This document shows positions 43,886-48,376 of a stretch of 50,198 bases of DNA, piece after piece. How positions within the stretch are numbered: position 1 is the stretch's first letter; every line of letters starts with the position of its first letter. The translations under genes and the position numbers were made by a program. Source of the stretch: Myxococcota bacterium (GTDB lineage Bacteria; Myxococcota_A; Polyangia; Polyangiales; Sandaracinaceae); the NCBI GenBank assembly GCA_036149055.1, contig JAYZQJ010000181.1, positions 1-50,198 on the forward strand, given 5' to 3'. The notes beneath the pieces were generated by a model, which was not told the DNA's origin, made no database searches, and saw nothing but the letters and a program-made list of their open reading frames with translations.

Positions 43886-44434
43886 TCAACCGCGGGGGTT
43901 GCTGCTCGGCTGCGGGGACGGGTCGTCCGCCTGGGTGCTGGGCTGCGGGGACGGGTCGCCGCCGCGGTTGCCGCCCGACCGAGGCGCGCTCGGCTGGGGG
44001 GACGGGTCGCCGAGCACGAGGTCCTCGGAGCTCGGGATCGAGGCGAGGCCGAGGGTGAGCAGGTAGCGCTCGCCGAGCTCGTCCGCCTCCTCGTCCAGGC
44101 CCTCCTCCTCGAGCTCCTGCTGCACCGACTCCACGGTGTCGACGCAGATCACGCGACCCATGGCGTCGACCGCCGCGATGAGCCCGGAGGGGGCGCTCGC
44201 GAGCGCGAACTCGGTGTCGCCGTCGATCCGGCCCTCACAGCCGGCGGGCGCGGCCATCCAGTCGGTCGAGTCGACGGAGTCGAGCGCGGTCGTCCCGGGG
44301 GTGACCTCGATGAGCGAGTCCTGGTTGGCGGCGTCGACCGCGAGCGGGCCGGGGCCCCCCAGGGCGCAGCCCCCGAGGGGCGCGGTGGTGAGCGCGACGA
44401 GGGCGCCGAGGATGATGGGCTTCAGGTTCTTCAT
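43886..44434 (-). CDS. Small lipoprotein with three C-terminal DPSPQPS repeats
   Basis: SD ggggag; ATG 3 nt after the upstream stop; lipobox LGGC; internal Cys pair; acidic helix; repeats. Confidence 0.85.
   Translation of the reverse strand: MKNLKPIILGALVALTTAPLGGCALGGPGPLAVDAANQDSLIEVTPGTTALDSVDSTDWMAAPAGCEGRIDGDTEFALASAPSGLIAAVDAMGRVICVDTVESVQQELEEEGLDEEADELGERYLLTLGLASIPSSEDLVLGDPSPQPSAPRSGGNRGGDPSPQPSTQADDPSPQPSSNPRG
43904..44008 (-). repeat. Three 21-bp spaced repeats encoding DPSPQPS
   Basis: 43904-43924, 43937-43957 and 43988-44008; copies differ only at synonymous third positions; spacers of 12 and 30 nt. Confidence 0.92.
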
Positions 44435-44437
44435 GGC

Positions 44438-47400
44438 TCAGCTCCCCGCCTTCAGCTCGTACTGCTTGACCAGCTGGGACAGGCGTGGACGTTTCATCCC
44501 CAGCAGCTCCGCCGCCCGGGTGATGTTGCCGTCCGTCTCCTCGAGCGCGCGCACGATGCACTCGCGCTCCATGACCTTCTTCATCTCGAGCAGCGAGACG
44601 TCGCCGCCCCGAACCCGCTCGTAGAGCATGCTCTCGACCGTCTCCCGGATCGGGCTCGAGGCCGCGATCTCGGTGGCCGCCTGACCCTTCGCCGGCTCCG
44701 GGGGCAGGAAGCTCTCGGAGAACGCGGCGAAGTCGTCCGGCACCAGCACGCCTCCGTCGGCGAAGAGCGTGGCCGAGCGGAGCACGTTCTCGAGCTCGCG
44801 CACGTTGCCGGGCCAGCGGTGCCGGGAGAGGCAGGTGACCGCCTCCGGGCTCAGGCGCTTGGCGGGCTCCCCGCGCTCCTCGGCGATGCGGCCGAGCAGG
44901 TGGGTCGCCAGCGGGCCCACGTCGTCGAGGCGGTCCCGCAGCGGCGGCATCTCGACCATCACGCCGCGCAGCCGGTAGTAGAGGTCCTCGCGGAACGTCC
45001 CCTCCTCGACCATGCGCTCGAGGTCGCGGTGGGTCGCGGCGACGATGCGCACGTCGACCTCGATCTTCTGCGTGCCGCCGACGCGCTCGAACTCGCGCTC
45101 CTGGAGCACGCGGAGCAGGGCGACCTGGGTCTTCGCCGAGATGTCGCCGATCTCGTCGAGGAAGATGGTGCCGCCGTCGGCCAGCTCGAAGCGGCCCTTC
45201 TTGCGCGCGTTGGCGCCGGTGAACGCGCCGCGCTCGTGGCCGAAGAGCTCGCTGAGCAGCAGCGTCTCGACCAGGGCCGCGCAATTCACCTTCACGAGCG
45301 GCTTGCCCTTGCGCTTGCTGTTGTCGTGAATGGCCTGCGCCACCAGCTCCTTGCCGGTGCCGCTCTCGCCGCGCACGAGCACGATGGCGTCGGCGGCGGC
45401 GACCTTGTCGATGACGCCGAACACGTGGCGCAGCGCGCCCGAGCTGCCCACGAGGTCCGGGTAGCGGCGGCGCCACTCGGCCTCGCGCTCGTCGCTCGGG
45501 ACGGAGGCGACGGCCCTCGCGCCGGTGAGCGCGCGGGGCGGCGGCACCGACTCGTGGCGCGTCCGGGTCCAGGCCGAGGCGAGCCCGGCGGCCACCGCGC
45601 TCAGCTCCTGGCGCAGCGGGCGCTCGGCCCACGCGGCGCGGGCCTCGTCGGGGACGCGCGAGGTCAGATCCTCCTCGACCCGCTGGGCGCGCTCGAGCAC
45701 CCGCGTGGCCAGGCCGACCTCGCCCGCGTCGCCGAGCGAGCGCGCGTGCCGGATGAGCGCCTTCAGCAGCCGCTCGGGGTCCTCGCACGCCTCGGCCAGG
45801 TCGACCGCGCGTCGCGCCGCCACCCGGGTGTCGCCGCCGGCCGCCCGCTCCAGGTCGGTGGCGACCCGCGCCCGATCCGCCTCGTGCTTGGCCGGCAGCT
45901 CCACCGGCAGCTCGCCGAGGAGCGCCCGGGCCGCCGGCACGTCGCCGTCGACGAGGTGCAGCCGGACGAGCTCCAGGCCGGCCTCGTGCTGGCGGACGGA
46001 GCCGAGCCGGGCGAACGCCTCGCGGGCGGCGTGGAACGCCTCGCGGGCCGCGCTCACGTTGCCGTCCGCGCCGTCGATGCGGCCGCTGAGCAGCAGGCTC
46101 TCCGCGAGCACCGAGCCGGGCAGCTTGCCGCCCACCCGGGTCGCGAATTCGCAGAGCCCTCGCGCCCGCCCCCGCTCGCCGAGCGTCAGGTAGAGCTCGC
46201 CGAGGTTGTTGGCGACGCGCGCGAGCATGGCGCGGTTGCCCAGGCGCTTCAGCAGGCCGACCGCCTGGTGGTAGTACTCGAGGGCGTGGCCGTACTCGCG
46301 CCCGAGGTGGGCGATGACGGCGAGGTTCTCGGTGGCGATGGCGCGCTCGCGGGTGTCGCAGACCCGGCTCGCGACGTCGATGGCCACGTGGCAGGCGCGC
46401 TCGGCGCCCTCGAGGTCGCGCTGGAGGAGCAGGGCGACCGCGAGGTTGGTGTGGGCCTGGGCCTCCTGGTGGCCGAGCCCGTTGTCGCGCGCCTCGTCCC
46501 GGTTGCGCTCGAAGAGGGGCGCGGCCACCGCCGGCTCCTTCTGCGCGAGGGCGAGCTTGCCGAGCGTGTTGCGGGCCATCAGGGCGATGACGAGCTTGCC
46601 GGCCTCCTCGGCGGCGGCGAGCGCGCGCTCGCCCCAGCGGCGGGCCTCGGCGTAGTCGGCGCTCTGGTAGTAGAGCTCCGCGAGGTGGGCCTCGACCTCG
46701 ACCTGCACGCTCGGGTCGCCGCTCCGCTCCGCGAGCCCGTGGGCGCGCACGAGCACCTCGGCCGCCTCCTCGTGCTCGCCGGCCTGGGTCAGCAGCTGGC
46801 CGACGCGCAGGGCCGGGAGCGCGTCCTCGGGCGCCGCGGCGTGGACCTCGCGCGCGTGCTCGAGGGCGCGGCGGTAGTGCCCGGACACCCGGTAGAGCTC
46901 GGCGAGGTTCTCGCGGATGGTCGCCGGCACGCCGCTCGCGGCGCCGGGGTCACAGGCCTCGAGGAACGACTCGAGCAGCGCCGCGGCCTCGCCGTTGGCG
47001 TGGCGGGCGGAGAGCGACGCGGCCGCGACCACCGCCAGCTCGGACGCGCGGTCGTGATCGCCGGCGGCCAGCGCGTGGCGCACCGCCTCCTGGAGGTCGA
47101 CCCCGTCGGCGCAGACCTCGGCGCAGCGCAGGTGCAGCGCGCGCTGGCGCGGGGCGGCGAGCAGGCCGTAGCAGCGCTCCCGATCGGCGTCGCGCCCGAA
47201 GCTGAAGAGGATGCGCCCGTCGATGATGTTCTTGCCGAGCAGGTCGCAGCCGGCGAAGGCGCCGCGCTCGACCGGGCTCGGATCCACCTGCGCGATCCGC
47301 GCGAGCTCCTCGACGTCGGCGTGGCGGCCGACGACCGCGAGCGCCTCGACCAGCAGGCGCGCGGTGGGCGGCAGGGCGTCGAGGCGACGCTCGAGCCGCG

Positions 47401-48376
47401 CCTCGGCGGTGAGCGGCTGGCCCTCGAGCAGGAGATCGATCGCCTCGGGCACGCCGCTGGTGCGCTCGAGGATGCGCTCCAGCGCGCCGCGCGACTGGAG
47501 GTAGGCGCGCACGCCGTCGAGGTCGAGGGTGCCGACCTCGACCCGGGTGGCGCGGTCGTGCTCGCGGAGCGCCTCGATCGGCGCGGGCATGCGGCTGGCG
47601 TCGGTGCGGAGGCTGGCCGCGAAGAGCGCGCGGGTGGTCGCGTCTCGCCCGTTCGGGCGCTCGTCGACCGGCGCGCCCTCGACGAGGAACTCGAGCAGCT
47701 CGAGCGTGCCCCGGTCGGCGCGCTCCACGTGGTCGAGCACCACGAGCGGGGCCCGGAGCCGGGCGACCTCGCGCAGCAGGCCGGCGACCGCGTCGAAGAA
47801 CCGGAGGCGCTTCTCGAACACCGCCGTCTCGGCGGTCGCGCCGGGCAGGTCGTCGGTGGCGAAGGGGACGCGCTCGACGTCGGTGCCGCCGTGCTGGTGC
47901 CAGAGGCGGTGGCAGCCGCCGCGGCAGGCGAGGCCGGCGAGATCGGTCTCGGGCGCGACGCCGACCTCCTCGAGGAAGCGGAGGGACCGGTCGACGATCT
48001 GGGCGAAGGGGCCGAACGCGCGGCCGGGCTCGCAGCGACCCTCGAGGACGACGCCGCCCTGCAGACGGACGCGGCTCTTGAGCTCGGAGAGGATGCTGGA
48101 CTTGCCGATGCCGCTCGGGCCTTCGACGAAGACGAGGCGGGCGGCGCGTCGATCGCCGCGCTGCGCCTCGCGGTAGAGATCGGACAGCCGCGCCAGCTCG
48201 CTCTCGCGGCCGGCGCACTGGCTGGCGGCGCTGGCGTCGGCGCCCCGGTCGGGGGCCTGGCCGTCGGAGGAGCGGCTGGGACTGTGGCTAGCCCCGTGGC
48301 TAGCACCGTGGCCGGCGAAGGCCCGGGAGGCCTCGGCGAGCGCGCGCGCCGAAGAAGAGGAGGGGTCGTGGTTCAT
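44438..48376 (-). CDS. Sigma54 enhancer-binding protein with N-terminal STAND/AAA_16-like NTPase and TPR array
   Basis: AGRESEL...[10 protein letters not shown]...[10 protein letters not shown]; TPRs; [38 protein letters not shown]; Fis-type HTH. Confidence 0.93.

What the first reader, a model, noticed from the sequence alone, without database searches (positions are those of the whole stretch)
43886..48376. Candidate peptide-signalling module: STAND-TPR-sigma54 activator coupled to a lipoprotein with three DPSPQPS cores
Seen: the ~1310-aa activator is followed after only 3 nt (SD overlapping its last codons) by a 182-aa lipoprotein ending in three identical heptapeptides DPSPQPS, preceded by G, G and D. 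Spacers differ in length and sequence, and the DNA copies differ only at synonymous sites, which suggests selection on the peptide rather than slippage. Known: RRNPP regulators use TPR domains to bind a peptide cut from the C-terminus of a small secreted precursor encoded next to them; STAND NTPases are switched on by ligand binding to repeat sensors; multicore precursors occur in RiPPs. Inference: the lipoprotein may be a pro-peptide whose released cores are the ligand of the TPR array, giving sigma54-dependent peptide signalling. I know of no described system of this form, but cannot exclude one.
Basis: partly seen in the sequence, partly recalled or inferred. Interest (0 to 1): 0.75.

Follow-up and report, generated by a model that had tools for sequence, protein, structure and literature searches.

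The report
Myxobacterial TPR activator with peptide lipoprotein
Across Polyangia and Bradymonadia bacteria a large sigma-54 gene activator is paired with a lipoprotein gene whose only shared piece is a short alternating-proline peptide, likely a signal that the activator reads, which would be a peptide communication system not found in our paper searches for Gram-negative bacteria.

Summary
Observation confirmed and extended. The 1312-aa STAND-TPR-sigma54 activator is followed 3 nt later by a lipoprotein with three DPSPQPS cores. Of 167 non-redundant activators of this clade, 156 have an auto-called lipoprotein next door, 108 by a 4-nt overlap. 107 of 118 complete partners carry a PxPxP/PxPW core, against 18% of control lipoproteins. 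The scaffolds are unrelated, cores come in 1-9 copies and track the TPR clade, and this genome's three paralogous activators have different cores. The most conserved sensor residues (N684 84/84, K607 83/84, N644, N724, N603) lie on alternate TPR helices, while the STAND ATPase often decays. Many relatives keep an enhancer-like site and a sigma54 promoter before the operon, suggesting autoregulation; this genus has lost them. Best reading (0.45): released cores are imported and bind the TPR groove, working like RRNPP signalling without being RRNPP. No paper found; this scan reported the same system earlier in another genome (e1-7077095).

The parts
44438..48376 (-). STAND-TPR-sigma54 enhancer-binding activator, 1312 aa
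   Evidence: AlphaFold model of aa 50-965 pLDDT 91.3, pTM 0.87; best Foldseek match 6MFV, a STAND with TPR sensor, E 7.5e-13
47672..48217 (-). STAND nucleotide-binding domain (AAA_16, aa 54-235); Walker A intact here, degenerate in about half of the clade
46184..46714 (-). Central TPR repeats (aa 555-731) with E567, R602, N603, K607, N644, N684, N724; inferred peptide groove
   Evidence: nearest natural PDB sequences LGN/Pins and kinesin light chain TPRs
44954..45454 (-). Sigma54 activator AAA+ domain (aa 975-1141) with GAFTGA
   Evidence: E 4.1e-72
44456..44572 (-). Fis-type HTH with the clade-diagnostic recognition helix MKRPRLS[QK]
44442..44445 (-). GGAG ribosome-binding site inside the activator's last codons (translational coupling inferred)
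   Evidence: sequence
43886..44434 (-). 182-aa lipoprotein, candidate propeptide; no Pfam or NCBIfam match
44366..44434 (-). Hydrophobic leader ending in lipobox Cys23
   Evidence: own rule, no SignalP
44015..44314 (-). Small folded domain (aa 41-140) with invariant C66 and C97; confined to one branch of the system
   Evidence: no structural match at Z 5 or more
43988..44008 (-). Core 1 DPSPQPS (aa 143-149)
43937..43957 (-). Core 2 DPSPQPS (aa 160-166)
43904..43924 (-). Core 3 DPSPQPS (aa 171-177)
48424..48452 (-). SigmaA-like promoter TTGAAC-N17-TACCCT, similar sites in 13 of 17 held-out relatives (inferred promoter)
   Evidence: shuffled mean 0.1
48476..48481 (-). Half-site CGTCAG, probable remnant of the enhancer-like site that relatives keep whole with a -24/-12 promoter

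Best explanation
The gene pair is likely a peptide-signalling module: the lipoprotein is predicted to be exported and trimmed by proteases to its alternating-proline core, which would be imported and bind the TPR groove of the co-encoded activator, likely switching on sigma54 transcription. Shown: the pairing, the core as the only common part of the partner, the conserved polar residues on alternate helices of the central TPRs, clade- and paralog-specific cores, and an enhancer-like site plus -24/-12 promoter before the operon in many relatives. Inferred: export and lipidation; release of the core (Xaa-Pro bonds resist most proteases, from general knowledge, so unspecific trimming of the flanks could leave it); uptake by an oligopeptide permease; backbone reading by N603/N644/N684/N724, with K607/R602 taking the acidic first residue or a free carboxylate; release of STAND-type autoinhibition so that the AAA+ domain oligomerises; and positive feedback through the operon's own sigma54 promoter where it is kept. 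Extra core copies would raise peptide yield per precursor. The sign (activating or inhibiting) is not determined.
For: Pairing: 156 of 167 non-redundant activators have an auto-called lipoprotein next, 108 starting at -4. Six of the 11 misses have one on inspection. The four without an adjacent partner have a core-bearing partner elsewhere in the genome. Control: 5 of 64 other scored sigma54 activators of this genome have a lipoprotein-like gene next, 2 with PxPxP. All four homologues of the small protein in this genome flank a clade activator. Core: 107 of 118 complete partners, 53 of 61 in the set chosen by the HTH pattern alone; PxPxP in 106 against shuffled mean 17.9, maximum 28; 187 of 1064 control lipoprotein-like ORFs. 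Scaffolds differ (small Cys domain, about 300-aa type with cores in an inner insert, 95-145-aa low-complexity type), with 1-9 copies. Receptor: N684 84/84, K607 83/84, N644 80/84, N724 78/84, E567 77/84, N603 75/84, at 20-75% identity to the window protein, all on alternate helices of the model. Nearest natural solved TPRs are peptide binders. Rap receptors anchor their peptide by a conserved Asn and have duplicated cores (PMC11343458, passages). Specificity: core class follows TPR clade; the three paralogs here carry DPSPQPS, DPTPTP plus DPSPQPS, and EPTPEPM. Feedback: site plus promoter in 10 of 17 held-out upstream regions against 0.8 shuffled. The genome encodes an oligopeptide-binding protein.
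Against: No conserved cleavage motif flanks the core beyond a G/D/A preference before it, and no protease or transporter is a conserved downstream neighbour. The precursor is membrane-anchored and in one branch the cores sit in an insert of a large domain, unlike Phr-type precursors. Asn at this position is also TPR consensus (visible in the consensus-TPR alignment), and the DPSPDPM clade has lost R602, N603 and N644. Clade-specific columns were not significantly enriched on groove helices (25 of 176 against 18 of 178, p 0.26). Core-clade agreement is also what plain co-inheritance of an operon gives. Some cores are tandem with no spacer, like PT linkers. The window's own genus lacks the enhancer-like site and -24/-12 promoter.
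Confidence: 0.45

Rival explanations
1. Export or envelope checkpoint: the core binds the TPR groove, but as part of the intact, not yet exported precursor in the cytoplasm. The activator would then report failure of lipoprotein export or act with a stoichiometric inhibitor, in the manner of NifL-NifA or ExsE (recalled), with no signalling between cells.
For: Tight translational coupling (108 of 156 starts at -4). No import step or cleavage motif is needed. Multiple copies could give avidity for an oligomeric activator. The scaffold is free to vary.
Against: Four activators have the partner displaced or on another contig. Cores diversify between clades and between paralogs of one genome, which a housekeeping checkpoint does not need. 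One paralog has a second, separate core-bearing gene upstream.
Confidence: 0.2
2. The lipoprotein is only an output of the operon: its core is read outside the cytoplasm by another receptor, such as the neighbouring membrane histidine kinase, or by neighbouring cells, and the TPR array senses something else.
For: A membrane GAF-HisKA-HATPase kinase lies directly downstream in 36 of 107 loci with enough sequence. Topology is simple: an exported peptide meets a membrane receptor. The TPR Asn is partly generic.
Against: The kinase is not adjacent in this window (its homologue is on another contig) nor in the Bradymonadia-type loci listed. The activator-lipoprotein link holds in all branches and was duplicated together in paralogs.
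Confidence: 0.17
3. The repeats are structural proline-rich spacers or glycosylation/phosphorylation sites of a surface lipoprotein, kept next to the activator by operon inheritance.
For: Tandem EPTPTPA-type arrays with no spacer in one branch; PxPxP occurs in 18% of control lipoprotein-like ORFs; the tail is unstructured in the model; a Ser/Thr kinase gene follows in the window.
Against: 55 of 106 partners have one copy of their commonest core, often ending in W, F or M. Positions 3 and 5 are often not Ser/Thr. Cores are invariant while spacers change freely. The kinase follows in only 4 of 107 loci.
Confidence: 0.1
4. The lipoprotein is a multicore RiPP precursor whose cores are modified by an enzyme encoded elsewhere, and the activator controls its production.
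For: Multicore layout with variable spacers.
Against: No maturase among conserved downstream neighbours; a lipoprotein leader sends the precursor away from cytoplasmic maturases; no Pfam or NCBIfam precursor match.
Confidence: 0.04

Closest known systems
RRNPP(A) peptide signalling (Rap-Phr, NprR-NprX, PlcR-PapR, AimR-AimP)
   Same: Cytoplasmic TPR receptor with conserved Asn; small exported precursor; C-terminal or internal cores, sometimes duplicated (PMC11343458, passages). Adjacent genes in RRNPP systems are recalled.
   Different: Diderm Myxococcota-type hosts instead of Bacillota; lipoprotein leader; 1200-1400-aa STAND-TPR-AAA+-HTH receptor with a C-terminal sigma54 output; alternating-proline cores; processing, import and binding untested.
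STAND proteins with a TPR sensor (MalT, PH0952/6MFV)
   Same: NBD, helical domains, then TPR sensor; top structural match 6MFV; inducer binding to the sensor releases autoinhibition in that family (PMC6468293, abstract and passages).
   Different: Output is a sigma54 AAA+ activator with Fis HTH rather than LuxR; the ATPase motifs are often degenerate; the proposed inducer is a co-encoded peptide, not a sugar.
Bacterial enhancer-binding proteins (NtrC/NifA/PspF family)
   Same: Sigma54_activat with GAFTGA, Walker A/B and Fis HTH; candidate enhancer 55-120 bp before a -24/-12 promoter in relatives.
   Different: Input is STAND-TPR; no NCBIfam equivalog reaches its cut-off (best 25 shown); dedicated partner gene.
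LGN/GPSM2/Pins and kinesin light chain TPR-peptide complexes
   Same: Nearest natural sequences and among the top folds for the TPR region, 40-residue repeats.
   Different: Eukaryotic scaffolds; similarity is weak (E 3e-6 or weaker) and shows a fold, not a ligand.

Membership tests
RRNPP(A) | TPR array as the sensor domain | tested here: met
RRNPP(A) | Conserved Asn anchoring the peptide main chain | tested here: inconclusive
   N603/N644/N684/N724 conserved, but partly TPR consensus and no complex model
RRNPP(A) | Small exported precursor encoded next to the receptor | tested here: met
   leader is lipoprotein type
RRNPP(A) | Compact receptor with N-terminal HTH or three-helix bundle before the TPRs | tested here: not met
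   1312 aa, N-terminal STAND, C-terminal AAA+ and HTH
RRNPP(A) | Bacillota hosts | tested here: not met
   the 80 named records are Polyangia, Bradymonadia and other Myxococcota/Deltaproteobacteria labels or unlabelled bacteria, plus one Chthoniobacteraceae chance hit that is no activator
RRNPP(A) | Proteolytic maturation, Opp import, peptide binding | not testable with these tools
   an SBP_bac_5 gene and DPPIV_N genes exist in the genome, unlinked
STAND with TPR sensor (MalT class) | NBD-helical-winged helix-arm-TPR architecture | tested here: met
   AAA_16, model, 6MFV best match
STAND with TPR sensor (MalT class) | Working ADP/ATP switch (Walker A and B) | tested here: inconclusive
   Walker A intact in the window; GK[ST] in 44 of 84; Walker B variable
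Sigma54 enhancer-binding proteins | AAA+ domain with GAFTGA, Walker A/B, C-terminal HTH | tested here: met
Multicore RiPP precursor | Modifying enzyme clustered with the precursor | tested here: not met
   no maturase among shared downstream genes of 107 loci, up to about 4 kb examined; upstream side covered only in part
PEP-CTERM-type sorting signals | Motif followed by a transmembrane helix and basic tail at the C-terminus | tested here: not met
   polar tail, no family match

The most novel reading that the evidence does not exclude
A diversified family of peptide signalling circuits in diderm Polyangia and Bradymonadia, independent of RRNPP: protease-resistant [DE]PxPxP cores are cut from surface lipoproteins, imported, and read by STAND-TPR-sigma54 receptors with clade- and paralog-specific codes. 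They autoinduce through a sigma54 promoter whose leaderless transcript makes a longer receptor form. This would give Sorangium, Chondromyces and Sandaracinus a defined, synthesizable density or kin-damage signal.
Probability: 0.4. Interest if true: 0.9.

Novelty: new variant of a known kind. Interest (0 to 1): 0.76.

Why it matters
Intracellular peptide receptors of the RRNPP kind are described as a Bacillota feature (PMC11343458, passages). A parallel system in diderm myxobacteria, with a lipoprotein as precursor and an NLR-like STAND-TPR sensor wired to sigma54, would extend peptide signalling to a new cell plan and give a STAND sensor a self-encoded ligand. It is directly testable with 7-residue synthetic peptides in cultured strains: Sorangium cellulosum So ce56 (partner CAN92619.1, core NPDPLPW, annotated hypothetical), Chondromyces apiculatus (DPNPNPW twice) and Sandaracinus amylolyticus (activator P0098). 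It offers many naturally different receptor-peptide pairs and a possible handle on development or secondary metabolism in these producers.

Tried and rejected
RNA runs: four RNA-library runs (2 studies, at most 3 samples) have contigs over the operon, two bridging the activator-lipoprotein junction. They are contigs, were found with this stretch and have no silent-stretch control, so they are not used as evidence.
Specificity-column test: groove versus outer helices not significant, p 0.26.
Regulon: a scan of this genome for site plus -24/-12 gave 13 hits against 4 and 2 in shuffles, no clear set. In 32 family genomes 18 exact hits: 12 upstream of the clade activator, 1 at the matching place at a contig end, 5 elsewhere, which is no more than the 11 reversed-pattern control hits. 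No target beyond the operon itself is shown.
Mixture-model tree did not finish; the FastTree tree was used, and it warns that the two paralogs of this genome join by long branches.
Fold search of the lipoprotein domain: best Z 4.2, none at 5 or more; ESM Atlas best score 0.78, uninformative.
Phospho-site reading rejected: Ser/Thr not kept at core positions 3 and 5, and the adjacent kinase is in 4 of 107 loci.
Paper searches for this system: searches gave 0 papers; one gliding-motility paper (listing only); eleven listings, none on this by title or abstract start, of which PMC12316311 was checked by passages. Subscription journals and supplements were not searched.
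Full report
OBSERVATION. The activator runs 48376-44438 (-), 1312 aa, with AAA_16 at aa 54-235, TPRs, Sigma54_activat at 975-1141 and a Fis HTH; no NCBIfam equivalog among the 25 shown reaches its cut-off. After 3 nt comes a 182-aa ORF with a GGAG site inside the activator's last codons. 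It has a hydrophobic leader ending in Cys23, a small folded domain (aa 41-140, pLDDT mostly above 90) and an unstructured tail with DPSPQPS at aa 143, 160 and 171; the DNA copies differ at two synonymous sites. It matches no Pfam or NCBIfam model. Homologue names point to Sandaracinaceae.

THE PAIR IS CONSERVED. The small protein has matches in 29 of 31 other genomes of the family, and all 30 fetched loci have the activator's C-terminus just upstream. Named records include Sorangium So ce56 and So ce26, Chondromyces apiculatus, Labilithrix, Sandaracinus, Persicimonas and Lujinxingiaceae; none of the 80 named rows is Myxococcus, which shows nothing about absence. Pooled and made non-redundant, 156 of 167 activators have an auto-called lipoprotein next, 108 starting with a 4-nt overlap; in the pattern-only set 109 of 114. 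Dropped before the count: L012 and L055 (no HTH found), L063 (contig end), L172 and L180 (under 150 nt downstream), and four pattern hits that were no activators. Of the 11 misses, six have a partner on inspection (L005, L066, L074, L083, L090, L186), one is too short, and four have none adjacent. Those four genomes each have a core-bearing partner elsewhere: about 3, 6 and 2 kb downstream or on another contig. Control: of 64 other scored sigma54 activators in this genome 5 have a lipoprotein-like gene next and 2 of these a PxPxP. All four homologues of the small protein here flank one of the three clade activators. Lipoprotein calls use my own lipobox rule. Locus L006 comes from G023, marked unpublished; it is one row in the counts, and no claim depends on it.

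THE CORE IS WHAT IS SHARED. 107 of 118 complete partners carry PxPxP or PxPW (53 of 61 in the pattern-only set); the other 11 carry two-proline variants such as EPAPTAA, GPTPQIP, NDPMPA. Shuffling gives PxPxP in 17.9 on average, at most 28, against 106 observed; 187 of 1064 lipoprotein-like ORFs of the genome have it. The scaffolds do not resemble each other: the small Cys domain in Sandaracinaceae and kin; 95-145-aa low-complexity proteins in Polyangiaceae (NPDPLPW in So ce56, DPNPNPW twice in Chondromyces, DPRPEPW four times); about 300-aa proteins with the cores in an inner insert in Bradymonadia-type genomes (EPVPLPW once, DPTPSPA nine times). The consensus is [G/D/A]-[D/E]-P-x-P-x-P-[W/S/N/A], in 1-9 copies with spacers of 0-37 aa, and 12 of 106 end at the C-terminus. 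In the 37-sequence family alignment 8 of 11 invariant columns are core residues, and Ser-3 uses both codon families.

THE RECEPTOR SIDE. In 84 STAND-TPR regions at 20-75% identity to the window protein the only invariant column is N684; K607 is 83/84, N644 80/84, N724 78/84, E567 77/84, N603 75/84, R602 67/84. On the AlphaFold model (pLDDT 91.3, pTM 0.87) they fall on alternate helices about 40 residues apart, in four or five central repeats only; that these helices line the concave groove is standard TPR geometry, recalled, not measured on coordinates. The best fold match is the STAND-TPR protein 6MFV, with LGN/Pins peptide complexes among the next; by sequence the nearest natural solved TPRs are LGN/Pins and kinesin light chain. 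The STAND ATPase is less constrained: 44 of 84 keep Walker A GK[ST] by my count, and Walker B varies. Against over-reading: Asn here is also TPR consensus, the DPSPDPM clade has lost three of these residues, and clade-specific columns are not significantly enriched on groove helices (p 0.26). Core class follows the TPR tree, and paralogs within a genome differ: here DPSPQPS three times, DPTPTP three times plus one DPSPQPS with a second DPTPTP gene upstream (C23), and one terminal EPTPEPM (C272). Co-inheritance alone predicts this agreement, so it is compatible with, not proof of, specificity. No complex model could be obtained, so binding is open.

PROMOTERS. Upstream of activators in the DPxPQP branch and of the C23 paralog lies CGTCAG-N4-YGCAC followed 55-120 bp later by a -24/-12 element. 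The motif was derived from those sequences, so I tested 17 further upstream regions: site within one mismatch in 8 (shuffled 0.6), site plus promoter in 10 (0.8), a sigmaA-like TTGAA-N17-TACCCT in 13 (0.1). These genomes are kin and not independent. Whole-genome scans of 32 family genomes gave 18 exact hits, 12 before this activator and one more at the matching place. In 22 of 23 regions with a -24/-12 element an in-frame start follows within 8-25 nt, 16 of them at 12-14 nt, where the transcript should begin. This predicts a leaderless mRNA and an N-terminally longer activator, 12 of them with an LRLL[DE] motif, while the sigmaA-like site lies inside that extension. The C23 paralog here has such a start at +14. 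The window's gene and its congener keep only the sigmaA-like site, the window also a half-site. That this activator binds the site is inferred; an FHA-sigma54 activator lies just upstream in the window and several relatives and is the alternative.

MECHANISM. I commit, at 0.45, to a released-peptide signal: export, trimming to a proline-protected core, import, binding to the central TPRs, release of autoinhibition, sigma54 activation with feedback on the operon. Adding the checkpoint variant (0.2), core-TPR binding in some form is about 0.65. The main other rival is an outside receptor: a membrane GAF-histidine kinase follows the pair in 36 of 107 loci but not here. An oligopeptide-binding protein and dipeptidyl-peptidase IV genes exist in the genome, unlinked and common.

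COMPARISON AND NOVELTY. It works like RRNPP, whose secreted, sometimes duplicated propeptides, Opp import, TPR domain and anchoring Asn I read in passages of PMC11343458. It fails membership on architecture and host. It is a STAND-TPR protein by fold (PMC6468293, abstract and passages) and a bona fide enhancer-binding protein. Six paper searches found no description; PMC12316311 passages do not mention it; subscription journals and supplements were not covered. Two unchecked notes of this scan describe the same pair and the same activator in other genomes; I saw them after forming the reading and they are not independent support. Verdict: real, widespread, apparently undescribed; mechanism plausible and cheap to test; interest 0.76.

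Noticed in passing
L215-L222, L224-L226, L229 and others; G000:C23 paralog: The -24/-12 promoter is followed at 12-14 nt by an in-frame start, predicting a leaderless transcript and a longer activator form; 12 of 23 carry LRLL[DE], which from memory resembles ClpX-adaptor docking motifs (untested). Absent from the window's genus.
   Followed up: partly
G000:C23:26752-27130 and 22527-23084 (-): The paralogous activator is flanked on both sides by homologous lipoproteins; the downstream one carries both the window module's core and its own DPTPTP, a possible cross-talk or duplication intermediate. A 1355-aa and a 497-aa ORF with signal-peptide-like starts lie upstream on the same strand.
   Followed up: partly
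L075:5050-7272, L098:1430-3559; G000:C229:5075-7273: Membrane GAF-HisKA-HATPase kinase directly downstream of the pair in 36 of 107 loci; unlinked in this genome.
   Followed up: partly
window 48503-49918 (-): FHA-sigma54 activator directly upstream; the same gene end is seen upstream in several relatives.
   Followed up: partly
window 49953-50198: Hexamer-type low-complexity repeat (SDSA/FG/RTRL frames) at the contig end; the congener has a similar repeat just upstream of its activator (L198).
   Followed up: no
window 42109-43842 (-): Ser/Thr kinase after the lipoprotein, in only 4 of 107 loci; contigs from three RNA runs stop matching at 43890 and go on with other sequence, so close strains may differ here.
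   Followed up: partly
window 35107-40440 (+): 1777-aa EAD7-like (below cut-off) kinase-TPR protein.
   Followed up: no
L231 (G026:C94): Site plus -24/-12 with an in-frame start at +12 before a trypsin-like lipoprotein protease (by eye); single case, not above the control rate.
   Followed up: no
L034, L076, L077, L135, L149: Third precursor type of about 105 aa with two different motifs, xPxPEPA and GPTPQ[IV]PIP, in one protein.
   Followed up: partly
window 40569-41366 and 41363-42070 (-): Cys-rich MXAN_6577-like lipoprotein (below cut-off) and a TPR membrane protein downstream of the kinase, same strand.
   Followed up: no
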